Assembly (NCBI GenBank): GCA_964463155.1
Contig: CAYXAY010000025.1
Span: forward strand, 1-10,398
Reading direction: 5' to 3'
DNA from: an uncultured archaeon
GTDB taxonomy: Archaea; Iainarchaeota; Iainarchaeia; Iainarchaeales; CSSED10-239
DNA: 10,398 bases
Below, one piece after another: positions 737 to 10,398 of the stretch; positions within the stretch are counted from its first letter, which is position 1; every line of letters starts with the position of its first letter. The notes beneath the pieces are model-generated. The model ran no database searches. It had not been told where the DNA came from and saw only the letters and a program-made list of their open reading frames with translations. The translations under genes were made by a program, and so were the position numbers.

Positions 737-1252
737 ATGAAGAATAAATTTGTTGGTTTTATTATACTTTTTATTGCATTGTTAATGTTTGCAATCATCT
801 TTCTATTTAATAGGGGCATGACAGACATTGTTAATACTTCTTGTGATCACGGACCGAGATGTCCAATGTGGGAAACTATTAATTTTCAAACAAATGTAAG
901 TATTGGCATAACCATTTTTGTAATATTGGTTGGCGTGTTTTTGATATTTTTTGGCAATGAAGAGAAAATAGTAACAATCGTAAAAACCAAAACAGTACAT
1001 CCTAAAAAAGTCGCAAATAAGATAACTAAAACAGAATATTCTAATATCCTCTCTACTCTTAATTCAGAAGAAAAGACAGTTTTTGAAAAGATTATTGAAG
1101 CAAAAGGAAGCATATATCAATCAGAGATTGTTCAAAAAACCAATTTTACAAAGGTTAGAGTCACAAGGATACTGGACAAACTAGAGGGAAAAGGCCTAAT
1201 TGATAGAAAAAGAAGAGGAATGACAAACATCGTTCTTTTAAAGAACAATTGA
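737..1252 (+). CDS. Membrane-anchored winged-helix (MarR/TrmB-like) transcriptional regulator: two TM helices, a Cys/His/Cys/Met loop and a cytoplasmic wHTH (resembles the archaeal COG2512-type architecture)
   Basis: TM1 is FVGFIILFIALLMFAIIFLF. The loop NRGMTDIVNTSCDHGPRCPMWETINFQTN has the motif at nt 842-871. TM2 is VSIGITIFVILVGVFLIFF, followed by a Lys-rich linker. The wHTH (nt ~1058-1243) reads LNSEEKTVFEKIIEAKGSIYQSEIVQKTNFTKVRVTRILDKLEGKGLIDRKRRGMTNIVLL. The positive-inside rule places the loop outside and the wHTH inside. Confidence 0.75.
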   Translation: MKNKFVGFIILFIALLMFAIIFLFNRGMTDIVNTSCDHGPRCPMWETINFQTNVSIGITIFVILVGVFLIFFGNEEKIVTIVKTKTVHPKKVANKITKTEYSNILSTLNSEEKTVFEKIIEAKGSIYQSEIVQKTNFTKVRVTRILDKLEGKGLIDRKRRGMTNIVLLKNN

Positions 1253-1263
1253 AACTAGTTTCA
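1250..1263. promoter_or_regulatory. Perfect 14-bp palindrome TGAAACTAGTTTCA, candidate operator of the copper-module promoter
   Basis: It is self-complementary when read directly. It overlaps the TGA stop of the regulator gene and sits just upstream of the TATA-like box. A third GTTTCA half-site lies at 1282-1287, inside an imperfect direct repeat (gtttcaagatataatat 1258-1274 and gtttcaatataatat 1282-1296). Confidence 0.4.
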
Positions 1264-1264
1264 A

Positions 1265-1280
1265 GATATAATATATAAAT
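1265..1280 (+). promoter_or_regulatory. TATA-like box for the 1301/copA transcription unit (archaeal-type, near-leaderless)
   Basis: gatataatatataaat is centred about 25-30 nt upstream of the ATG at 1301. There is no Shine-Dalgarno-like purine run before the ATG. Confidence 0.3.
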
Positions 1281-1300
1281 GGTTTCAATATAATATTTCT

Positions 1301-1906
1301 ATGGGTAAAGAAAACAAAAAAGGAATAGCCAAAGGTTTGTTGTTTGCAATTATCCCCCACATAGGGTGTATACTTTTTATAGTTTTAAGTGTACTTGGAG
1401 TTACTATTGCGGGCAGTTTCTTTAGAAATTTATTATTTAATAGATATATATTTTACATACTTATCGGATTGTCCTTTTTATTTGCGGGGCTTTCTACAAT
1501 AATTTACTTAAAGACAAACAAGATATTGTCAATAGCAGGCATAAAAAGAAAATACAAGTATATCCTTTTGATGTTTGGAACTACAATTGTTGTTAATCTT
1601 TTGCTTTTTTTTGTAATATTTCCTTTCATTGCTAATTTTTCTATAAATAACCAGCAAAACCTCACATCATCTGGGCTTTTAGATGTCACAAACCAGATAA
1701 CTAATACCATTGTTGTGGACATCCCCTGTTCAGGACATGCTCCATTAATAATAAATGAATTAAAAACAATACAGGGAATTATAACAGTAAAGTTTAAACT
1801 TCCAAATCGTTTTGTAATAACTTATGATAAAACAAAAACCTCAATAATTGAAATAATTAATCTTGAAATTTTTAACGAATTTCCTGCAAAACTGATAAAG
1901 AGATAA
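1301..1906 (+). CDS. Three-TM membrane protein with a C-terminal HMA-like (ferredoxin-fold) domain carrying CSGH instead of CxxC; MerT/MerP-like fusion architecture, putative membrane-tethered metal acceptor/chaperone
   Basis: TM1 LLFAIIPHIGCILFIVLSVLGV contains P-H-I-G-C (nt 1355-1369). TM2 is YIFYILIGLSFLFAGLSTIIYL, followed by the basic loop KTNKILSIAGIKRKYKY. TM3 is ILLMFGTTIVVNLLLFFVIFPFIANF. The C-terminal region TIVVDIPCSGHAPLIINELKTIQGIITVKFKLPNRFVITYDKTKTSIIEIIN has a beta-alpha-beta-beta-alpha pattern with the metal loop where GMxCxxC would sit (CSGH at nt 1727-1738). Its stop is 3 nt before the copA ATG. Confidence 0.7.
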   Translation: MGKENKKGIAKGLLFAIIPHIGCILFIVLSVLGVTIAGSFFRNLLFNRYIFYILIGLSFLFAGLSTIIYLKTNKILSIAGIKRKYKYILLMFGTTIVVNLLLFFVIFPFIANFSINNQQNLTSSGLLDVTNQITNTIVVDIPCSGHAPLIINELKTIQGIITVKFKLPNRFVITYDKTKTSIIEIINLEIFNEFPAKLIKR

Positions 1907-1909
1907 AAC

Positions 1910-4084
1910 ATGAAAAAAACATATAAAATTACTGGCATGCATTGCACTTCTTGTTCCAAAAACATAGAGACAGCTTTAAAGAACGAGAAAGGAATTACAA
2001 AAACTACTGTTAATTTTGCAACAGAGTTTGCTGAAATAGATTTTGATGAGAAAAAAACATCTGAAAATGAAATTTTTACAAAAGTAAAACAACTAGGCTA
2101 TAACATAGAAGAAAAAACAGAAGAAATTACTGAGAAAAAACCAAAGAACGAATGGAAAATAAGGTTTTTTATTTCTCTAATATTTACAACCCCCATTTTT
2201 GTTCTTTCAATGTTTGTTTCTGATTTTAGTTCAAAGAACTTAATTCTTCTTTTGCTTACAATTCCGGTTCAGTTTTTTATTGGGTTTGCATTTTATAAAA
2301 GTTCATATTATTCTGTTAAGGCAAAAGCAGCAAACATGGATGTATTGGTTATTGTTGGAACAACCGCTGCATTTATTTATAGTGTGCTTGTTATCTTGAT
2401 GCCTGAAAGTTTTGGACACATGGCGTATTTTGAGATTTCAGCAGTAATAATTACTTTTGTAGTTCTAGGAAAATGGTTAGAATCACACTGTAAGGGAAAA
2501 GCATCAGAAGCAATAAAGAAATTAATTGATCTTAAGCCAAAATTTGCAACAGTTTTAAGAAACAATAAAGAAATAAGAATTTCAGTAAAGGACATAGTAA
2601 TAGGAGACATAGTTATTGTCAAACCCGGAGAAAAAATAAGTGTTGATGGGGTAGTAATTTCTGGAGACTCTTATGTTGATGAGTCAATGGTGACCGGAGA
2701 AAGCAAACCTGTGCATAAGACTAAGGGAAATGAAGTAATCGGAGCCACTATAAACAAGAACGGTTCTTTTACCTACAAAGTAACAAAAATCGGAAAAGAC
2801 ATGTTTATTAGCCAAATAATTAAACTTGTTGAGGACACTCAAAACAGTAAGGCGCCTATTCAAAAACTCGCAGATAAGATTAGTGGTTATTTTGTGGTTA
2901 TTGTGATTGTCATTGCCTTAATTAGTTTTTGTGTGTGGTATCTTTTGCTTGCTAAAAGTTTTGTATTTGCATTAATTGTTTTTATTTCAATTTTAGTGAT
3001 TGCTTGTCCTTGTGTTCTGGGCCTTGCAACACCCACTGCAATTATAGTATCTACTGGCATGGCTGCAAATAATGGCATATTAATTAAGAACGCAGAAGTC
3101 ATTGAAAGACTATCAAAAACAAACACAATTGTATTTGACAAAACTGGAACCTTGACTTCTGGTTTTCCGGAAGTTACAAAAGTTATTTCTTTAGATGAAA
3201 GTATATCTGAAAAAGAAATATTAAAGATTTCAGCAATAGGCGAGAAAAAATCAAACCACCCTTTGGCTGAAGCAATAGTATCAAAGACAAAATCAGAAAA
3301 AATAAACTATGACTTTAATCCAGAAAAGTTTTTGGAAACAGACGGCAAAGGCATTTCTTTTATTTTAGAAAAATCAAAATATCTTGTTGGTAATAAAAAA
3401 TTATTAAATGAAAGCAAAATTGATTGCACGAAACAAGATAAGCAAATTATGGAGCTAGAAAGAAAGGCTCAAACAGTTGTTCTTGTTTCTAGAGACAATA
3501 AGTTAATTGGATTAATCTGTATATCTGACAAAATAAAAGAAAATGCAAATCTTGCAGTTTTAAGATTAAAAGGAAAAGGCAAGGAAGTTATACTTCTTAC
3601 AGGAGATAATTCTGAAACAGCAAAGGCCGTTGCAAAATCCGTTGGAATAGATAAAGTAATCTCTGAAGTTTTACCTAAAGATAAATCAGAAGTAATTAAA
3701 GAACTTCAAAAAGAAGGAAAAATTGTGACAATGGTTGGAGACGGTATAAATGATGCTCCTGCTCTTGTTCAAGCAGATATCGGCATAGCGATTGGTTCAG
3801 GAACAGATGTTTCTATAGAAGCAGGACAAGTTGTTTTAATTAAAAATAACATATTAGATGTTGTTAGAGCAATAGATATAGCAGAATTTACCTTTAAAAA
3901 AATAAAACAAAATCTTTTCTTTGCGTTCTTTTACAATTCAATAGGCATTGTTATAGCAACAGGTGCTTTTTATGGGATTTTAGGTTTTATATTAAACCCA
4001 ATGATTGCCGCGGGAGCCATGGCATTAAGTTCAGTATCTGTGGTGTCAAATTCTGTATTAATGAAACGCCACAAATTCAAATAA
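1910..4084 (+). CDS. copA: Copper-translocating P1B-type ATPase
   Basis: There is a single N-terminal HMA motif, GMHCTSC (1934-1954). Also present are actuator TGES (2693-2704), the TM6 CPC motif in [11 protein letters not shown] (3005-3013), the phosphorylation site DKTGTLT (3137-3157), the [11 protein letters not shown] motif, and the hinge [10 protein letters not shown] (3737-3766). Length is 724 aa. Confidence 0.97.
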
Positions 4085-4244: not shown

Positions 4245-5267
4245 ATGTCAACAGTATACTTCAAAGCAATTGATGATTATTCTAAGACAGATGAGATTAA
4301 TATGGCAGTCTTAGAACTGTTTAAGAAAGTCAATAATGGCTTTGTGGGGGAAGTAGCAATTAAAGTTCATTTTGGAGAAGACGGAAACAAGACTTTTATT
4401 TCTCCAAGAAATTATGATCAATTGATTGATTATCTCCAAAAGAATAATTGTACTCCAGTCTACATAGAATCAAATGTTTTATACAAAAGCAAAAGAACAA
4501 CAAGAGAAAGCCACATAGCGTTGGCAAAAGAACATGGCTTTACTAATCTTCCAATAGTTATTGCTGACGGATATATTGGAGAAGAATATATTGAAGTTGA
4601 AATTTCTAAAAAGCATTTTAAAAGTTGTAAGATTGGAAAGGCCTACAAGAACTATTCTCAATTTATAGTTATTACTCATTTTAAAGGACATGGACTTTCG
4701 GGGTTTGGAGGAGCAATCAAAAACCTAGGAATGGGTTTTGCAGCAAGATCAGGAAAACTAGCAATGCATGCTAATTCTAAACCAATAATCAATCCATTTA
4801 AATGTAAGAAATGTCATCTTTGTGAACAGAATTGTCCAGTTAATGCTATAACTATTGGATTAATTCCACACATTGATACAAAGAAATGTATTGGTTGTGC
4901 AAAATGCATAGCCATTTGTCCACATCATGCATGTACTGTTAATTGGATATCAACTTTTCCAGGTACCTTTGAAGAAAAGCTTTGCGAGTACGCTCTTGCT
5001 GCAACTAAGGCAAATAAAGATAATCAAATAATCTATATTAACTTTTTATTAAATATTACAGACAACTGCGATTGTATGTCTCACACAAAAGTTGTTGCAA
5101 AAGATATTGGTATTCTTGGTGGAACAGACCCTGTTGCCATGGACAAAGCATGTTTTGATCTACTAAACAAAAAAGAAAACAAAAAAGTCTTTCCTGGAGA
5201 AAAAACTTTTGATTATGCTGAAAGTATTAGTCTTGGTAAGAAAGAATATATTTTAAAAGAAATCTAA
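4245..5267 (+). CDS. DUF362-type protein (COG2768-like uncharacterised Fe-S protein) with an inserted 2x[4Fe-4S] ferredoxin domain
   Basis: Two CxxCxxCxxxCP motifs are present: CKKCHLCEQNCP (4803-4838) and CIGCAKCIAICP (4887-4922). Flanking segments look typical of DUF362 (VAIKVHFGE, ITHFKGH, NITDNCDC). The ORF track starts at TTG 4218. ATGs occur at 4227 and 4245, and I prefer 4245 (MSTVYFK) because family members usually begin close to the VYF strand and a TATA-like attttataat lies at ~4203-4212. The start is uncertain within 4218-4245. Confidence 0.85.
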   Translation: MSTVYFKAIDDYSKTDEINMAVLELFKKVNNGFVGEVAIKVHFGEDGNKTFISPRNYDQLIDYLQKNNCTPVYIESNVLYKSKRTTRESHIALAKEHGFTNLPIVIADGYIGEEYIEVEISKKHFKSCKIGKAYKNYSQFIVITHFKGHGLSGFGGAIKNLGMGFAARSGKLAMHANSKPIINPFKCKKCHLCEQNCPVNAITIGLIPHIDTKKCIGCAKCIAICPHHACTVNWISTFPGTFEEKLCEYALAATKANKDNQIIYINFLLNITDNCDCMSHTKVVAKDIGILGGTDPVAMDKACFDLLNKKENKKVFPGEKTFDYAESISLGKKEYILKEI

Positions 5268-5280
5268 TATAAATATATTT

Positions 5281-6114
5281 ATGCGAATACTTCCAAAGAT
5301 ATTTAAAAGACCAAAACATAAGAAAGACATAGTAAAAAGAGTTTCTGAGGGAAAAAAAACAGATAGTTGGGCAAAGAATGGAACCAAAGACAGATATCGA
5401 ATAGTATTTGAATATAAATTAGAAAATCACCCGCTTGAATTCTTAGAAAGATTGAAAAATAAAAAACCAAAAGTACTGTTTATTGGTCCAGGAAAAGGAG
5501 AATATATTAAAATATTCAAAGAAAAACTAAATGAAAAAGGCATATCTCCGGAAATATCAGTAATTGGCATAAAAAAATCAATTAATCCAGATTTATTAGA
5601 AGAAAAAGTAATTAATAGAGACTATTCCATTGATAAAACAATGGAAGACATTTTTGATAATCCAAATAAATATGAAACATTAATTAAAATTCTAAGAGAC
5701 AATGCAGATTTAGTTATTGCTTCTAAAAGCTCAGGATTTCACACATATTACCCCGCATATAATGTTTTTATTTCTGCACTTTTGCTAAAACCAGGCGGAA
5801 GAACATATATTGAAATACCAACTAGAGAATTAATACTTGGAAGTGAATCAAGAAAATCAAAAAACCAACAACCTTATGGTATTTTTAATAAACTTAAAAA
5901 AATAATTTACGGAGAAGAAGATTATGAAAACCAAATACAATATCGCCATAAAAAAAGAATGATTAGAGAAGTTGAAAATATTTCTGAAGAAACAAGAACA
6001 TATTTAAACAAATACTTTAAAAGAGACGTGTCTAAAGAATTTGAGATAAATTTATTTAATAAATCTAAAAGCGCAGGCTCTGTATTTGTTATAGTTAATA
6101 GAAAATCCCTATGA
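5281..6114 (+). CDS. Lys-rich hypothetical protein with divergent class I (Rossmann) SAM-methyltransferase-like motifs
   Basis: The 277-aa ORF contains KVLFIGPGKGEY (motif I-like G-x-G-x-G), ADLVIAS (a beta4-like strand) and ALLLKPGGRTYIE (the 'LLKPGG' post-motif strand). The N- and C-terminal tails are very basic. The ATG lies 13 nt after the DUF362 stop. Confidence 0.55.
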   Translation: MRILPKIFKRPKHKKDIVKRVSEGKKTDSWAKNGTKDRYRIVFEYKLENHPLEFLERLKNKKPKVLFIGPGKGEYIKIFKEKLNEKGISPEISVIGIKKSINPDLLEEKVINRDYSIDKTMEDIFDNPNKYETLIKILRDNADLVIASKSSGFHTYYPAYNVFISALLLKPGGRTYIEIPTRELILGSESRKSKNQQPYGIFNKLKKIIYGEEDYENQIQYRHKKRMIREVENISEETRTYLNKYFKRDVSKEFEINLFNKSKSAGSVFVIVNRKSL

Positions 6115-6116
6115 TA

Positions 6117-6386
6117 TTATTTGTAGAAAAGCTTAAGATTGTGTTTTACAAACTTGTCAATTATTTTGTTTAGGAGTATTTGTTCTCCTTTCTTTAGATA
6201 AATATATCCGAAAATAGAAGCAAATACTGCTCTAAGAGTATTACGCAAAAAATCCTTCGTGGTATCAATTATTCCAATCCGAGAATCACAAGGTCCTGTT
6301 TCTAGGCAAAGATAATCTTGTTTTTTGCAGGTTTGCACCAATTGTATTGTCAACACAAAATTCAAAGATTTCTTATACCATTCCAA
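6117..6386 (-). CDS. Hypothetical 89-codon ORF, possibly a gene remnant with a faint RNase III/Mini-III-like C-terminal motif
   Basis: An open frame of 89 codons is unlikely by chance in DNA this stop-rich. However, it has no ATG at all (only TTG at 6386-6384), a TGA lies two codons upstream, and its stop is 2 nt from the convergent 5281 gene stop. ...LRAVFASIFGYIYLKKGEQILLNKII... resembles the 'EALIGAIYLDgG' end of RNase III domains, but the acidic catalytic positions are not conserved. Confidence 0.3.
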   Translation of the reverse strand: MEWYKKSLNFVLTIQLVQTCKKQDYLCLETGPCDSRIGIIDTTKDFLRNTLRAVFASIFGYIYLKKGEQILLNKIIDKFVKHNLKLFYK

Positions 6387-6582
6387 TTGTCAAAGTTATA
6401 CAAAAGATAATTGTTGCAATATACAAAACGCTTGTTTTAATTTTTAATTTCCTTATTTCTTAAGAGTTTGTTGTAGGTGATGGCAAAGCGATGGGCTTTT
6501 GTATTATATTTCTACTCAAAATTTTAAATAATAAAATAGTTACTTATTTAAAGAGTTTTAAGCTAAAATTTAATTGATAAAA

Positions 6583-6669
6583 ATGATTTCTGAAGAACAT
6601 ATTGAAGAGCTAGACTCTAATGGTAACATTATATTTGCCACTGTTCATTTTATTGATAAAATTAAATAA
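6583..6669 (+). other. 28-codon ORF (MISEEHIEELDSNGNIIFATVHFIDKIK) carrying copy 1 of the 19-bp repeat; probably the displaced 5' end of the gene that now starts at 8019
   Basis: ATG at 6583 and TAA at 6667-6669. Codons 5-10 (EHIEEL) are encoded by the same 19 nt as codons 5-10 of the 8019 ORF. Confidence 0.25.
6595..6613 (+). repeat. Direct repeat copy 1: GAACATATTGAAGAGCTAG
   Basis: Exact 19/19 identity with 8031-8049. The flanking bases differ on both sides (a/t before, a/g after). Confidence 0.9.
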
Positions 6670-6714
6670 GTAGGGAATTCTATTTCTATTAGAATCGCCA
6701 CAACCTGTAGATTA

Positions 6715-6732
6715 TGTCGATTATAATCGACA
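6715..6732. promoter_or_regulatory. Perfect 18-bp palindrome TGTCGATTATAATCGACA, candidate operator abutting the ATPase promoter
   Basis: It is self-complementary when read directly. It ends 2 nt before the TATA-like box at 6734-6743. Confidence 0.45.
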
Positions 6733-6733
6733 G

Positions 6734-6743
6734 ATATTTAAAT
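6734..6743 (+). promoter_or_regulatory. TATA-like box (atatttaaat) for the ATPase gene
   Basis: It is centred about 27 nt upstream of the ATG at 6765, which fits an archaeal leaderless transcript. Confidence 0.35.
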
Positions 6744-6764
6744 TTTTGGTAGTATATATAATAT

Positions 6765-8003
6765 ATGGATACAAACGCAATTAAGGAAGTTTTAAAATTT
6801 AGTGATAATAATCTTGATGACTTTACAGAGTCTCAAAGGTTTTTATTTTCTGAGATTGAAAGCAAAATATCTCATTTTTCAAAAAAACGTGGACTTAATA
6901 TTATATTAATAACTGGACTTAGAGGAACAGGTAAAACCACAATCTTGAAGACAATTGCTAAGAAACATAACGGTCTATATATCAGTGGAGATTTTCTAAA
7001 GACTAAGCAAATAGATATTCCAGACTTAACTGAAATTTCTAAAGCTTATGATAAAAAGATAATAATTATTGATGAGATACTTTATCTTTCAGATTGGCAA
7101 TTAAAGTTAAAGATTGAAGCAGACACTAATCAGAATATTCTTTATATCATTTCTGGTTCTTCAGCAATGCAGTTAAAGAAGATTTCTCCGGATTTATCTA
7201 GGAGATTAGATACTTATAGGCTTAATCCATTATCTTTTAGGGAATATCTAGTTTTAAAGAATAATCTTAAATTAGAGCAGAAAGTTGATTTTTCTAGTTT
7301 TTCAAATAAGGATCAAGAAAAGTTATTTTTAGAGTTATCTTCAATCAAGCAGAAACTACCAAAAAACATATATTCTTTGTTTAAAGAATATTATGAAGAT
7401 CAGTTACCTTATCTTCTAGAGGAAAAGAACAAAAGAGACAAGATAAGGCAGTTAGTTGATAAAGTCATATATAAAGACATGCCGCAGATTGATAATCTAT
7501 ATACTGAGCAATTAAGAAATGCAGAAATCATTATTATGTTTTTAAGTTCTGCAGAAAAGATAAACTATACAAGTATTTCTACAAATCTAGGTATTAAAAA
7601 AGACATGGTGATTAAGATTATTAATCTTTTAGAAAAATCTGATTTATTATATATAGTTCAAGACGTTATTCCGACTAGAGAACTTAGAAGTAACAAGAAA
7701 GTTCTATTTTCTTCTCCCGGAATAAGGATAGCACTAAACGAGATAAATGAAGAAATGGTTATTGGTTTTTCAAGAGAAGACATGTTTGGTTTAATTATTA
7801 AATCTGCTGGTTTAAAAATAGCATATAACTACAAGCAAAAAGGTTATGATTATTTAGTTAACAAAGTAAAATTTGAGATAGGCAAGAACAAGACCAAGAA
7901 CAGTACAAGCAAAGGCACCATTGTCGTAGGCGACTACTTAGATGTAGAATACAAAAAGCAAGTACTTTATGTTCCAATGTTTCTTTTAGCTTTAATTAAT
8001 TAA
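6765..8003 (+). CDS. AAA+ ATPase of the AAA_14 + DUF4143 (COG1373-like) family with a C-terminal PD-(D/E)xK-like motif
   Basis: Walker A is ITGLRGTGKTT (6915-6941) and Walker B is IIIIDEI (7059-7079). The DUF4143-like/wHTH segment is VIYKDMPQIDNLYTEQLRNAEIIIMFLSSAEKINYTSISTNLGIKKDMVIKIINLLEKSDLLYIV (~7458-7680). The C-terminal GYDYLVNKVKFEIGK (7842-7886) corresponds to the family's 'EvDFv....iEvK' region. Confidence 0.88.
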   Translation: MDTNAIKEVLKFSDNNLDDFTESQRFLFSEIESKISHFSKKRGLNIILITGLRGTGKTTILKTIAKKHNGLYISGDFLKTKQIDIPDLTEISKAYDKKIIIIDEILYLSDWQLKLKIEADTNQNILYIISGSSAMQLKKISPDLSRRLDTYRLNPLSFREYLVLKNNLKLEQKVDFSSFSNKDQEKLFLELSSIKQKLPKNIYSLFKEYYEDQLPYLLEEKNKRDKIRQLVDKVIYKDMPQIDNLYTEQLRNAEIIIMFLSSAEKINYTSISTNLGIKKDMVIKIINLLEKSDLLYIVQDVIPTRELRSNKKVLFSSPGIRIALNEINEEMVIGFSREDMFGLIIKSAGLKIAYNYKQKGYDYLVNKVKFEIGKNKTKNSTSKGTIVVGDYLDVEYKKQVLYVPMFLLALIN

Positions 8004-8018
8004 TTTAGGGGTAATGCA

Positions 8019-8267
8019 ATGTTTGATATTGAACATATTGAAGAGCTAGGTTGGTCAGTAAATAATCACCCTACAAGTAAATTAATTGTAACAAATCGGA
8101 GAAAGGTATCGTTAAAAAAACACAATTTTACTATATTATTTAATAAAAGTAATTGCTGTGTTCCATTCTATATGAAATCTAAAAATGGGGATGCATTTGG
8201 ATTAACAAGCGGGGCAGGATCGTCCGTAATTAGATTCGATAATAATTTTAGAAATTCGGGCCGATAG
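8019..8267 (+). CDS. Hypothetical 82-aa protein, no recognisable family
   Basis: The ATG at 8019 is preceded by an SD-like aggggt with 6-nt spacing. Stop TAG at 8265-8267. I recognise no motifs. Confidence 0.45.
   Translation: MFDIEHIEELGWSVNNHPTSKLIVTNRRKVSLKKHNFTILFNKSNCCVPFYMKSKNGDAFGLTSGAGSSVIRFDNNFRNSGR
8031..8049 (+). repeat. Direct repeat copy 2: GAACATATTGAAGAGCTAG
   Basis: Exact 19/19 identity with 6595-6613. It begins at codon 5 of the 8019 ORF, the same phase and offset as copy 1 in the 6583 ORF. Confidence 0.9.
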
Positions 8268-8359
8268 CAGATAAAGATGGTCAAATGCTTTTAGATTCTG
8301 TAATTGAAAAAAGGTTTAATTTTTAAATTTTATGGCATCACATAATATTTGGTGTAAAT

Positions 8360-10398
8360 ATGAATAAACTAGTTTCTTTTAAAGTAATAAATAAATCTGT
8401 AGCTAGAAAAATTTGTATTTTTTTAATAATTAGTTTTATGTTATTTTCTACAACATATATGTTTGCGAGGACAACTTTTATTCCCCAGAATTTTGATTTT
8501 AAAAAAGATATTGATATTTCAAATGCCTATATTAATTATGAATCAGAAGTTCTTAATAATATGCTTGAAGAACGCAAATATGATTTTTTTAAATTAAACA
8601 CGAATAGAGATTATGTTGATGGAGAAATATTAGTAAAATATAAGAAAAGCCAAATAGATTTAGATACTTCTTCGGGAAGAACAGATGCCAAAAGTTTTAG
8701 TATTAATAATTTATTGACAAAAGTTGAATATTTAAGAAAAGACAATATATCTATATTAAGAATAAATGATAATAAAAGTGTTGAAGAAAAAATAGAAGAA
8801 CTTGAAAATGACCCAAATGTAGAATATGCACAACCAAACTATATTTATTATCCGTTTGGTATAGACACAAATGACATTAATAAAAATGTTTTATGGGGAT
8901 TACATAATTTTGGACAAAATGTAAATGGAGTTTCTGGAACAAATGATGCAGATATTGATACTCCCGAAGCTTGGGGAATATCTGTTGGTTCTTCTAGTGT
9001 TATTGTCGCAGTTATAGACACCGGTGTTGCATATAATCATCCAGATTTAATTGGTAATATGTGGGATGGGGCAACTTGTAAAGATGAGAATGATAAAATA
9101 TTAAATAATTGTGTTCATGGTTATGATTATTCAGATAATGACAAAACACCATTACCAACACTAAGTGATCATGGGACTCATGTTGCTGGAACTATTGCTG
9201 CTTCTAAAAATAATGGTACTGGAATAATTGGCGTTGCACCAAATGCAAAGATAATGGCAATAAGAGCAGGAATAGATAGCTTTACTACTGCAAATTTAAT
9301 TAAATCAATAAACTTTGCAAGAAGAAATGGTGCACACATAATAAACGCAAGTTGGGGTGGCACAGCATCTGATACGACATTACGAAATGCAATTAATTCT
9401 TTTCCAGGATTATTTATTGCGGCTGCAGGTAATAGTGGAAGAGATCACAATAATACAGCAATTTATCCTTGTGATTATAATTCTACAAATATAATTTGTG
9501 TTGCTGCAACAGACCAAAACGATAACTTAGCTTTATTTTCTGATTATGGTACAATATCTGTAGATGTTGGAGCACCAGGAACAAACATTTATAGTACAAT
9601 TAATGGTTTTCTTAATGATGCTTTAGATGAAAACTTTGAAAGTGTAACTGCGCCACAGATCCCTAATAATTGGGAAGCTGCAGGAACTCATGTGAATTGG
9701 GGCACTGTTGATATTAACGGAAATTACGAAAATGTGTTATATGGCGACCAGGTAGTTCCTTATGCAAATAATGCAAATTCAACAATTACTTCTCCAACTG
9801 TTGATTTAAGTAATATTGGTGGGGCAACAATAACTTTCGTGACCGTTTGCGATACAGAATTAGATTTTACATATTGGAAAGATTATATGGCATTAGAATT
9901 TAGTAGTAACGGTAGTACATTCACTGAAATATTAAGATGGGACGAAGCATATTTTTCCCCAGGGAATGTTGTACCAATAATTAAAGAAGATATTTCTACA
10001 AAATATTTAACAAGTAATTTCAGATTTAGATATAGATGGGTTACGAATAGTTCAGATAATAATTATGGTGGTTGTTTTGTAGATAATATTTTGATAAAAA
10101 CTTACAGTAATGGCTTTGATGATGAATACGCTTATTATGACGGAACATCCATGGCAGCACCACATGTTACAGGATTAGCTGCATTAATACGGGGATACAA
10201 ATCTGATCTAAATTATTCACAAGTTAAGGATTTGATTTTAAATAACGGAGATTCATTAAATTCATTAAATAATAAAACAGTAACGGGTAAAAGAATAAAT
10301 GCACAAAAAACTCTTGAAGCAATGAATGTATATAAACCAACAATAGTAAATGTGTCTTCAACTAAACCGAATGGCAGATATAAAGCAGGAACCGATAT
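8360..10398 (+). CDS. Secreted subtilisin-like serine protease (peptidase S8) pre-pro-enzyme with a large inserted beta-sandwich-like domain; 3' end lies outside the window
   Basis: This ORF is absent from the ORF track because it has no stop in the window. I translated it codon by codon from ATG 8360 to 10398 (679 codons) and found no stop. The signal/anchor is KICIFLIISFMLFSTTYMFA (to ~8467). The I9-like propeptide is GEILVKYKK...NDPNVEYAQPNYIY (~8618-8851). Catalytic residues are Asp in VAVIDTGV (gac 9017-9019), His in SDHGTHVAGTIAA (cat 9170-9172), oxyanion Asn in AAAGNSG (aat 9431-9433) and Ser in GTSMAAPHVTGLAAL (tcc 10148-10150). An SD-like ggtg lies 5 nt upstream of the ATG. Confidence 0.93.
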   Translation, partial: MNKLVSFKVINKSVARKICIFLIISFMLFSTTYMFARTTFIPQNFDFKKDIDISNAYINYESEVLNNMLEERKYDFFKLNTNRDYVDGEILVKYKKSQIDLDTSSGRTDAKSFSINNLLTKVEYLRKDNISILRINDNKSVEEKIEELENDPNVEYAQPNYIYYPFGIDTNDINKNVLWGLHNFGQNVNGVSGTNDADIDTPEAWGISVGSSSVIVAVIDTGVAYNHPDLIGNMWDGATCKDENDKILNNCVHGYDYSDNDKTPLPTLSDHGTHVAGTIAASKNNGTGIIGVAPNAKIMAIRAGIDSFTTANLIKSINFARRNGAHIINASWGGTASDTTLRNAINSFPGLFIAAAGNSGRDHNNTAIYPCDYNSTNIICVAATDQNDNLALFSDYGTISVDVGAPGTNIYSTINGFLNDALDENFESVTAPQIPNNWEAAGTHVNWGTVDINGNYENVLYGDQVVPYANNANSTITSPTVDLSNIGGATITFVTVCDTELDFTYWKDYMALEFSSNGSTFTEILRWDEAYFSPGNVVPIIKEDISTKYLTSNFRFRYRWVTNSSDNNYGGCFVDNILIKTYSNGFDDEYAYYDGTSMAAPHVTGLAALIRGYKSDLNYSQVKDLILNNGDSLNSLNNKTVTGKRINAQKTLEAMNVYKPTIVNVSSTKPNGRYKAGTD

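What the first reader, a model, noticed from the sequence alone, without database searches (positions are those of the whole stretch)
6595..8049. Exact 19-bp direct repeat, in frame at codon 5 of two ORFs, brackets a single-gene ATPase cassette
GAACATATTGAAGAGCTAG occurs at 6595-6613 and 8031-8049, with non-identical flanks on both sides. In both copies it starts exactly 12 nt after an ATG and encodes EHIEEL (MISE-EHIEEL-D... and MFDI-EHIEEL-G...). The ~1.44-kb interval contains only the AAA_14/DUF4143 ATPase with its own TATA box and palindromic operator. The simplest reading is that a cassette inserted into the 5' end of the gene now starting at 8019. This duplicated a 19-bp core (att-like or a long target-site duplication) and left a 28-codon stub at 6583. 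I see no recombinase, transposase or terminal inverted repeats, so the mobilisation mechanism would be unknown or act in trans. COG1373-type ATPases are notoriously multi-copy in archaeal genomes, which fits selfish or defence-island behaviour.
Basis: partly seen in the sequence, partly recalled or inferred. Interest (0 to 1): 0.65.

Follow-up and report, generated by a model that had tools for sequence, protein, structure and literature searches.

The report
Repeated mini-gene start flanking defence ATPase
The exact 19-base repeat is real, but it is the conserved start of a small lineage-specific mini-gene present in two old copies on either side of a candidate anti-virus ATPase gene, not the footprint left when a mobile cassette inserted, so it is a fairly ordinary scar of gene shuffling in a variable genome island.

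Summary
Observation confirmed. GAACATATTGAAGAGCTAG occurs exactly twice (6595-6613, 8031-8049), each 12 nt after an ATG. It is the longest exact repeat in the window (0/300 shuffles reach 19) and is present in an independent 99.9 % identical assembly.

The target-site-duplication/att reading is not supported.
- The 19-mer is the core of a ~45-nt "X-box", the start of a micro-ORF (M-x-x-x-E-H/Y-I-E-E-L-D-L/S-N-G-N). I found it at five sites in three related genomes, behind three different upstream sequences.
- The two window copies belong to two old variants. Their 12-nt prefixes match 6/12, but the right prefix matches a copy in another genome 10/12.
- The left repeat lies inside, not at the edge of, a block (about 6521-7945) shared at 92 % with a relative.
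- The "gene at 8019" is a chimera. From base 8049 it is a truncated pseudogene whose homologues have a different N-terminus.
- A uvrC remnant abuts the other side of the block.

The block is young compared with its neighbours (dS 0.29 against 1.3-1.7), and the ATPase is a mosaic of two copies seen in the relative. So recent recombinational exchange and defence-island behaviour (PADLOC PDC-S01) are supported. No empty site was found.

The parts
6443..6499 (-). 3' remnant of uvrC (last 19 codons, KAHRFAITYNKLLRNKEIKN*). It marks the left rearrangement junction of the block.
   Evidence: 61 nt are 88.5 % identical to the uvrC 3' end of L018. tblastn with L018 UvrC residues 506-524 gives 17/19 identities, E 6e-6. 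No other part of uvrC is in the window.
6546..6566 (+). Promoter-like element P (ATTTAAAGAGTTTTAAGCTAA), about 17 nt upstream of the left X micro-ORF. It is consistent with a leaderless X transcript (inferred).
   Evidence: It is identical (21/21) in L032 at 1728, upstream of a deaminase gene, and 20/21 in L017 at 9785, upstream of X_B.
6583..6669 (+).
   Evidence: It is collinear with L017 9822-9905, which is 92 % identical but frameshifted. The conserved X-box runs from the ATG to AATGG(A/T)AAC in four copies (alignment).
6595..6613 (+). Left 19-mer, the core of the X-box (codons 5-10, EHIEEL, plus G).
6684..6744 (+). ATPase control region. It holds a degenerate operator 1 (about 6686-6697), the perfect palindrome TGTCGATTATAATCGACA (6715-6732) and a TATA box (about 6735-6744). 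The ATG at 6765 is probably leaderless.
   Evidence: Two CGATTwwAATCG-type palindromes plus TTTAAA are conserved upstream of the ATPase in 8 loci. Homology to distant loci begins at 6682-6711.
6765..8003 (+). AAA_14 / DUF4143-type ATPase (412 aa), PADLOC PDC-S01 type. It is intact and a mosaic of two copies seen in L017.
   Evidence: Pfam AAA_14 90.5 bits against a cut-off of 27; DUF4143 24.4 bits, below its cut-off of 28.1. PDC-S01 E 5e-26. dN/dS 0.10 against L017. Informative sites switch from matching L017-B (7782-7909) to matching L017-A (7958-8003, 58/59 against 44/59).
8008..8049 (+). Shine-Dalgarno-like GGGGT (8008-8012) plus the 5' 31 nt of an X micro-ORF, variant 2 (ATGTTTGATATT + core). 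It is truncated right after the core.
   Evidence: The prefix is 10/12 identical to the L032 X-box and only 5-6/12 to variant 1. The position after the ATPase stop is the same as X_A in L017.
8031..8049 (+). Right 19-mer. Its right end is a rearrangement junction.
8049..8323 (+). Pseudogene remnant of a P0122/P0123-like gene of unknown function. It corresponds to residues ~19-108 of 264-360-aa homologues, lacks the first 16-18 codons, has a probable frameshift near 8262, and lacks the C-terminal two thirds.
   Evidence: phmmer against 1.84 billion representatives gives P0122 E 8.7e-8 and P0123 E 2.9e-6, with homology starting at query residue 10-11. BLASTP and tblastn place the start at GW = base 8049. 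The word-based search found no other relative.
8360..10398 (+). Subtilisin-like S8 protease gene, running off the window end (flanking host gene).
   Evidence: Pfam Peptidase_S8 3e-51 and Fervidolysin N-pro 2.5e-12.

Best explanation
The two 19-mers are the conserved cores of two old paralogous copies of a lineage-specific micro-ORF start, the 'X-box'. An X-box is an ATG, three variable codons, then E-H/Y-I-E-E-L-D-L/S-N-G-N. X-boxes sit next to PDC-S01-type AAA_14 ATPase genes in a variable island of an AT-rich, probably DPANN-type, archaeon.

The left copy (variant 1) has its own promoter element P. It is linked to the ATPase and its operators as one block, P-X-operators-ATPase. The right copy (variant 2) has a Shine-Dalgarno sequence 15 nt after the ATPase stop. 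It is the normal downstream partner of such an ATPase.

Inferred history:
1. In a donor array of the form ATPase-X ... P-X-ATPase, as still seen in relative L017, recombination between two ATPase copies produced the mosaic ATPase flanked by an X-box on each side.
2. This block was exchanged into the window lineage recently.
3. It was joined by illegitimate recombination or deletion to a truncated uvrC on the left (about 6500-6545).
4. On the right, exactly after the core (8049/8050), it was joined to a 5'-truncated P0122-like gene that has since decayed.

On this reading the exact 19/19 identity reflects constraint on the peptide or DNA core, possibly helped by gene conversion. It was not created by an insertion event.

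Shown: the anatomy, the copies in other genomes, the mosaic, the truncated flanks and the dS contrast. Inferred: the order of events, that X is translated, and the nature of the constraint.
For: X-box copies:
- Window 6583 and 8019; L017 8136 (after an ATPase 3' pseudogene fragment plus a GGAG Shine-Dalgarno) and 9822 (after P); L032 2271 (after a dCMP-deaminase gene).
- Core identity between any two copies is 16-19/19. Prefix identity is 10-12/12 within a variant and 5-6/12 between variants.
- If the window pair were one uniform-age duplicate, the chance that all 6 mismatches fall in the 12-nt prefix is 0.0013.

Block and neighbours:
- The block 6521-7999 is 92 % identical to L017 9760-11235 and includes the stub. 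Neighbouring syntenic genes are 72-82 % identical.
- dS is 0.29 for the ATPase against 1.3-1.7 for MarR, the TM protein and the Cu-ATPase, and 0.65 for DUF362.
- The ATPase 3' end is a mosaic.

Flanks:
- The 82-aa ORF is homologous to P0122/P0123 only from residue 11. The conserved GFHSGW motif is cut.
- A uvrC remnant lies at 6443-6499.

Coding signal in X:
- Substitutions in X codons 5-15 are about half synonymous (CAT/CAC, CTA/TTA, GGT/GGA), read from the alignment.
- Each copy has a Shine-Dalgarno sequence or a promoter at the right distance.
Against: - Only five X-box copies in three genomes are available. X tails differ after about 15 codons and one copy (L017-B) is frameshifted, so translation of X is unproven.
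- No protein in 5.8 billion matches the X profile.
- X-box pairs bracket exactly one AAA_14 gene twice: in the window and in L017 (52-nt repeat, 8133-8184 / 9819-9871, around a different paralogue on the opposite strand). Related loci also show long direct repeats around the ATPase module (370 nt in L018, 60 nt in L039, 44 nt in L033). A duplicative insertion process acting in this lineage is therefore not excluded.
- The donor arrangement is inferred from L017, which carries a variant-1 rather than a variant-2 prefix after its ATPase fragment.
Confidence: 0.6

Rival explanations
1. First reader's model. A single-gene ATPase cassette inserted into the 5' end of the gene at 8019, duplicating a 19-bp target or att core and leaving a 28-codon stub.
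For: The repeat is an exact direct repeat that brackets one gene and is in frame in both ORFs. The right repeat edge coincides with a real junction to another gene. L017 8136-8184 looks like a 'cassette right end - core - cassette left end' junction.
Against: - The left repeat is internal to the block shared with L017, and the stub travels with the ATPase.
- Homologues of the target gene have a different N-terminus and the gene is a truncated pseudogene.
- The right prefix is an old X variant also found after a deaminase gene in L032.
- There is no recombinase, transposase, terminal inverted repeat or tRNA.
- The 19-mer and X-box gave only chance hits in GTDB representative genomes, a JGI contig subset and IMG/VR.
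Confidence: 0.06
2. The X-box is a dedicated cassette-boundary or recombination module. PDC-S01-type ATPase genes would be inserted, swapped or lost by recombination between X-boxes, giving an array in which X-boxes alternate with ATPase genes. This would resemble an integron without a recognisable integrase.
For: In L017 the order is ATPase fragment - X - AAA_14 no. 2 - X - ATPase. In the window it is X - ATPase - X'. Sequence diverges at different points right after each X-box. The core is far more conserved than its prefix.
Against: Only three genomes are available. L018, L024, L028, L031, L033 and L039 carry the same ATPase module without any X-box. In L032 the X-box follows a deaminase gene. 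There is no conserved secondary structure and no recombinase. The ATG, reading frame and Shine-Dalgarno/promoter features fit a coding start better than a DNA site.
Confidence: 0.12
3. Campbell-type integration. A circular DNA carrying ATPase plus one X-box integrated by homologous recombination within the X core of a resident P-X copy. This would create the direct repeat without any dedicated enzyme.
For: Direct repeats of local sequence flank the ATPase module or other single genes in related loci. The lengths vary: 370 nt of the YgjP 3' half in L018, about 123 nt around Fic in L028, 86 nt around a 295-aa gene, 60 nt in L039 and 44 nt in L033.
Against: The model needs a pre-existing fusion of P-X(31 nt) to the truncated P0122-like gene, plus a crossover within only 19 nt. 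The P-X-operator-ATPase linkage is already present in L017 without the right-hand partner. Similar low-scoring flank matches (scores 37-40) occur around other genes in these AT-rich loci.
Confidence: 0.15
4. Chance repeat or assembly artefact.
For: The genome is AT-rich, and the window is a single short metagenomic contig.
Against: 0/200 and 0/300 shuffles reach the observation. An independent assembly has the same arrangement. The same element is conserved in L017 and L032.
Confidence: 0.01

Closest known systems
PADLOC PDC-S01 / COG1373 (AAA_14 + DUF4143) single-gene defence candidates
   Same: The bracketed gene has an AAA_14 domain, matches PDC-S01 HMMs and sits in a variable region next to another AAA_14/DUF4143 gene in L017. 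PDC-S01 is described as an ATPase fused to a PD-(D/E)XK domain. It is abundant and frequently transferred in Archaea, and its experimental validation is pending (PMC12988326). DUF4143/COG1373 is listed in the PD-(D/E)XK superfamily (PMC3424549).
   Different: The DUF4143 match of the window protein is below Pfam's cut-off (24.4 against 28.1 bits). Nothing in those descriptions concerns flanking micro-ORFs or repeats.
Target-site duplications / att cores of integrative elements
   Same: A short exact direct repeat on both sides of a gene that is foreign to the locus.
   Different: The repeats are not at the borders of the shared block. There is no recombinase. The reconstituted 'target gene' is not coherent. 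The repeat unit is an older, independently occurring coding start.
Recombination scars in defence islands (partial gene duplicates, mosaic paralogues, truncated flanking genes)
   Same: The window shows a mosaic ATPase, truncated uvrC and P0122-like genes at the block edges, and a much lower dS than its neighbours. Related loci carry duplicated YgjP 3' halves.
   Different: Here the repeated piece is the start of a conserved micro-ORF with two old variants, which makes it look like a designed core.
Integron gene-cassette arrays
   Same: A short conserved element alternates with single genes (L017 and the window).
   Different: There is no integrase and no attC-like structured, imperfectly palindromic site. 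The element is an ORF start, and most related ATPase loci lack it.

Membership tests
Target-site duplication / att core of an inserted cassette | The repeats lie exactly at the borders of the inserted DNA, so homology to other copies of the element ends at the repeats. | tested here: not met
   Homology to L017 runs from about 6521 to about 7945, so the left repeat and stub are internal. Homology to six more distant loci runs from 6682-6711 to 7980-8006 and touches neither repeat.
Target-site duplication / att core of an inserted cassette | Joining the left flank, one repeat and the right flank restores a coherent target gene. | tested here: not met
   Homologues P0122 and P0123 begin with 16-18 unrelated residues, and their conserved GFHSGW motif is cut at 8049. 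The downstream gene is a frameshifted, C-terminally truncated remnant.
Target-site duplication / att core of an inserted cassette | An empty site exists in relatives. | tested here: inconclusive
   No X-box or 19-mer locus beyond chance was found in GTDB representative genomes, the JGI contig subset or IMG/VR. The 82-aa ORF has no close relative. The collections evidently lack this lineage: the L017 contig itself was not found.
Target-site duplication / att core of an inserted cassette | A recombinase or transposase, terminal inverted repeats, or a tRNA target is present. | tested here: not met
   Pfam scans of all window ORFs found none. There are no tRNAs and no terminal inverted repeats at the interval ends.
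AAA_14 / DUF4143 ATPase (COG1373; PADLOC PDC-S01) | AAA_14 P-loop domain above Pfam's gathering score. | tested here: met
   90.5 bits against a cut-off of 27, residues 45-162. The Walker A motif GLRGTGKT and Walker B motif IIIIDE are visible in the translation.
AAA_14 / DUF4143 ATPase (COG1373; PADLOC PDC-S01) | C-terminal DUF4143 (PD-(D/E)XK-like) domain. | tested here: inconclusive
   24.4 bits, below the cut-off of 28.1. Many close homologues carry a precomputed PF13635 hit.
AAA_14 / DUF4143 ATPase (COG1373; PADLOC PDC-S01) | Match to PDC-S01 profile HMMs. | tested here: met
   PDLC04789 E 5.4e-26; PDLC04787 E 4.8e-21.
AAA_14 / DUF4143 ATPase (COG1373; PADLOC PDC-S01) | Protects against virus infection. 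| not testable with these tools
   Validation of PDC-S01 is reported as pending (PMC12988326).
Integron-like cassette array | A site-specific integrase and structured attC-type sites between cassettes. | tested here: not met
   No integrase was found. The X-box alignment gives only a 5-bp invariant hairpin with no covariation. Single-sequence folding z-score is -0.24.

The most novel reading that the evidence does not exclude
The X-box would be a functional junction module of a defence-gene array in DPANN-type archaea. It is a ~45-nt conserved micro-ORF start that recurs between PDC-S01-type ATPase genes. Cassettes would be duplicated, swapped or deleted there by recombination without a dedicated recombinase. 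The micro-peptide might also act as a partner or regulator of the ATPase. The recurrent long direct repeats around single genes in related loci would be footprints of the same duplicative insertion process.
Probability: 0.12. Interest if true: 0.6.

Novelty: new member of a known kind. Interest (0 to 1): 0.25.

Why it matters
The main value is as a caution. An exact, in-frame direct repeat bracketing a single gene looks like a target-site duplication. Here comparative data show it is a conserved paralogous ORF start inside a recombining defence island.

It also documents three things:
- a previously unannotated micro-ORF family (X) associated with PDC-S01-type ATPases;
- a conserved double-palindrome operator in front of these ATPases;
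- evidence (mosaic gene, five-fold lower dS, truncated neighbours) that such candidate defence genes are exchanged by recombination among small-genome archaea.

If X-boxes or the long flanking duplications prove systematic, they would point to a recombinase-independent route of defence-gene turnover.

Tried and rejected
- Exact 19-mer scan of GTDB representative genomes: 15 hits, each in a single copy and all in other taxa. None comes from the source lineage.
- Degenerate 21-mer scan of JGI metagenome contigs: 5 hits. None has an ATG at -12 or the TTAATGG continuation.
- Degenerate 19-mer scan of IMG/VR: 26 hits, all unrelated E[HY]IEEL contexts.
- ATPase search in IMG/VR: no relative.
- Word-based protein search with the 82-aa ORF: only itself.
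- Profile of the X peptides against 5.8 billion proteins: nothing scored. Two earlier attempts failed on parameter limits.
- Test of whether the region upstream of the left repeat is a decayed ATPase 3' end: no similarity above shuffles.
- RNA structure of the X-box and of the X-to-ATPase leader: no signal.
- Rfam and tRNA scans: nothing relevant.
- PDB sequence search with the ATPase: no hit.
- A 9-nt match between the YgjP 3' end and the X core (AAGAGCTAG) was considered as a possible origin of X. It was dismissed as chance-level.
- Literature search for DUF4143/AAA_14 gave mostly noise. Useful context came from PMC3424549 and PMC12988326.
Full report
OBSERVATION

GAACATATTGAAGAGCTAG occurs at 6595-6613 and 8031-8049 on the + strand. 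No other copy exists at up to 3 mismatches, and 0 of 200 shuffles gave two matches. It is the longest exact direct repeat in the window. In 300 dinucleotide shuffles the longest repeat was 13-18 nt. Both copies start 12 nt after an ATG and are in frame: MISE-EHIEEL-D... at 6583 and MFDI-EHIEEL-G... at 8019. Within the window the flanks of the two copies are no more alike than shuffled sequence. A 2810-bp Logan contig from SRR11582140 (L001) is 99.9 % identical to 6557-9366 and spans both copies, so the arrangement is not an assembly artefact.

SETTING

The window is a whole 10.4-kb contig of about 29 % G+C. Its genes, in order:
- a transketolase-C fragment;
- a membrane MarR-like regulator;
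- a membrane protein;
- a Cu-type P-ATPase;
- a DUF362 Fe-S protein;
- a weak methyltransferase-like ORF;
- an unsupported 89-aa ORF on the minus strand;
- the interval in question;
- a subtilisin-like S8 protease running off the end.

The bracketed gene (6765-8003) is an intact AAA_14 ATPase: 90.5 bits for AAA_14, with a DUF4143 match below threshold. It matches PADLOC PDC-S01 profiles at E 5e-26. PDC-S01 is described as an ATPase fused to a PD-(D/E)XK domain. It is very common and often transferred in Archaea and is not yet validated experimentally (PMC12988326; DUF4143/COG1373 is listed in the PD-(D/E)XK superfamily in PMC3424549).

Upstream of the ATPase, two CGATTwwAATCG-type palindromes are conserved in eight loci. 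In the window these are a degenerate copy at about 6686-6697 and the perfect TGTCGATTATAATCGACA at 6715-6732. A TATA box and an apparently leaderless ATG follow.

WHAT THE REPEAT IS

ATPase homologues form a graded series, and I fetched their loci.

L017 (JGI 3300032103, ATPase 95 % aa) is syntenic with the window from the MarR-like gene to DUF362, at 72-82 % nt. Beyond that it differs:
- L017 7878-8165 holds a decayed 3' fragment of an ATPase, followed after a GGAG by ATGACTTCTGAA-GAACACATTGAAGAGCTAG-ACCTTAATGGAAAC.
- Next comes a different AAA_14/DUF4143 gene on the opposite strand.
- L017 9760-11235 is 92 % identical to window 6521-7999. This stretch includes the "stub", which there carries a 1-nt insertion that frameshifts it, and an exact 19-mer at 9833.
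- No right-hand repeat follows that ATPase.

L032 (ATPase 85 % aa) has ATGTCTGATACT-GAATATATTGAAGAGTTAG-ACCTTAATGGAAAC just after a dCMP-deaminase gene.

The 19-mer is therefore the core of a ~45-nt "X-box". An X-box is an ATG, three variable codons, then E-H/Y-I-E-E-L-D-L/S-N-G-N, after which each copy diverges. It occurs behind three kinds of upstream sequence:
- promoter element P, ATTTAAAGAGTTTTAAGCTAA, found at window 6546, L017 9785 and L032 1728;
- an ATPase 3' end plus a Shine-Dalgarno sequence;
- a deaminase gene plus a Shine-Dalgarno sequence.

There are two old variants of the prefix. The window's left copy and both L017 copies share one variant (11-12/12). The window's right copy and L032 share the other (10/12). 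Between variants identity is 5-6/12, while the core is 16-19/19 in every comparison. If the window pair were a single duplication of uniform age, the chance that all six mismatches fall in the prefix is about 0.001.

About half of the few substitutions in codons 5-15 are synonymous (read from the alignment). Each copy has a promoter or a Shine-Dalgarno sequence at the right distance. This fits a translated micro-ORF, but it does not prove one. A profile of the peptides finds nothing among 5.8 billion proteins. There is no RNA structure signal and no Rfam or tRNA hit.

THE FLANKS

The 82-aa ORF at 8019 has no word-sharing relatives. An exhaustive HMMER search finds two proteins of 360 and 264 aa, at E 9e-8 and 3e-6. 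Homology starts exactly at residue 11 (GW), which is base 8049. This corresponds to residue 19 of one homologue and residue 17 of the other, and it cuts their conserved GFHSGW motif. Homology probably continues past a frameshift near 8262 and stops at 8323, so the remaining two thirds of the gene is missing. The ORF is therefore a chimera of 31 nt of X-box and a pseudogene truncated at both ends. The stub at 6583 cannot be its lost 5' end.

On the other side, 6443-6499 (minus strand) encodes the last 19 codons of UvrC, with 17/19 identities to the L018 protein. The rest of uvrC is absent. The segment from about 6500-6545 to 8049 thus lies between two truncated genes.

AGE AND MOSAICISM

Between the window and L017, dS values are:
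- MarR-like gene 1.72;
- membrane protein 1.34;
- Cu-ATPase 1.57;
- DUF362 0.65;
- AAA_14 ATPase 0.29, with dN/dS 0.10.

The non-coding P-X-operator stretch is also about 90 % identical. Informative sites in the ATPase 3' region switch pattern. At 7782-7909 the window matches L017's full-length copy. At 7958-8003 it matches L017's fragment copy, 58/59 against 44/59. The P-X-operator-ATPase-X block is therefore a recently exchanged recombinant piece of an array in which ATPase genes and X-boxes alternate. The two X-boxes were already there. They were not produced by insertion into the window locus.

RESIDUAL DOUBT

X-box pairs bracket exactly one AAA_14 gene in two genomes: the window and L017, where the repeat is 52 nt. 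Direct repeats of local sequence also flank the ATPase module or other single genes in related loci:
- 370 nt of the YgjP 3' half around the ATPase in L018;
- about 123 nt of the same YgjP end on both sides of Fic in L028;
- a YgjP remnant after the ATPase in L017;
- 86 nt around a 295-aa gene in L018;
- 60 nt in L039;
- 44 nt in L033.

Weaker flank matches (scores 37-40) also occur around ordinary genes. A general duplicative insertion process in this lineage cannot be excluded. Candidates are Campbell-type or homology-facilitated illegitimate recombination, or the X-box acting as a preferred junction.

No empty site could be sought effectively. The GTDB representative genomes, the JGI subset and IMG/VR returned only chance hits and evidently lack this lineage.

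VERDICT

The TSD/att-cassette mechanism is not supported. The broader idea of a mobile, defence-island-type gene is supported.

The most likely account is two paralogous micro-ORF starts flanking a recombinant PDC-S01-type ATPase, with a deletion junction exactly at the end of the right copy. My confidence in this is about 0.6. Interest is modest at 0.25. The junction-module reading has a probability of about 0.12 and would be more interesting if true.

Noticed in passing
window 6443-6499 (-): An isolated 3' remnant of uvrC (last 19 codons) is present, with no other part of the gene in the window. In L018 a full uvrC lies in the same island neighbourhood. This lineage may have lost or relocated uvrC.
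   Followed up: partly
window 8049-8323 (+): Pseudogene remnant of an uncharacterised family (P0122, 360 aa; P0123, 264 aa). These have no Pfam or PADLOC match and carry the conserved motifs GFHSGW and GLSSGVGS. Only two representatives were found among 1.84 billion cluster representatives.
   Followed up: partly
window 6684-6744; same position in L017, L018, L024, L028, L031, L032, L033: Two CGATTwwAATCG palindromes spaced about 30 nt apart, followed by a TATA box and a leaderless start, are conserved upstream of this ATPase clade at 76-95 % gene identity. This is a likely (auto)repressor operator pair.
   Followed up: partly
window 6546-6566; L017 9785; L032 1728: The 21-nt promoter-like element ATTTAAAGAGTTTTAAGCTAA is conserved 20-21/21 across genomes whose ATPase genes are only 81-92 % identical. 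It drives X in two genomes and a deaminase-X pair in the third. The L001 contig starts inside it (6557), which hints that it is multi-copy.
   Followed up: partly
L018 9498-9864 and 11324-11730; L028 about 7197-7319 and 8367-8489; L017 11254-11302: Duplicated or relict copies of the 3' half of a YgjP-like gene accompany the ATPase module in three genomes. They flank the ATPase in L018, flank Fic in L028, and follow the ATPase in L017. This looks like an old duplicative insertion whose scar still travels with the ATPase.
   Followed up: partly
L017 7858-8120: The ATPase fragment next to DUF362 in L017 carries an internal ~94-nt deletion relative to the intact gene. At sites 7916-7940 (window numbering) it shares variants with L017's full copy rather than with the window, which suggests gene conversion between the two L017 copies.
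   Followed up: partly
window 4245-5267 versus 737-4084: dS against L017 falls from about 1.3-1.7 (MarR-like gene, TM protein, Cu-ATPase) to 0.65 in DUF362, the last syntenic gene before the island. This suggests a recombination tract extending from the island into the core.
   Followed up: no
window 5281-6386: The methyltransferase-like ORF (277 aa; only a sub-threshold Methyltransf_23 hit) and the 89-aa minus-strand ORF have no counterpart at this position in L017. The 89-aa ORF has no family match and may be spurious.
   Followed up: no
L032 1783-2229: A MafB19-like/dCMP-type deaminase gene sits between element P and an X-box in L032, next to the ATPase. Deaminases of this type are often toxin or defence components.
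   Followed up: no
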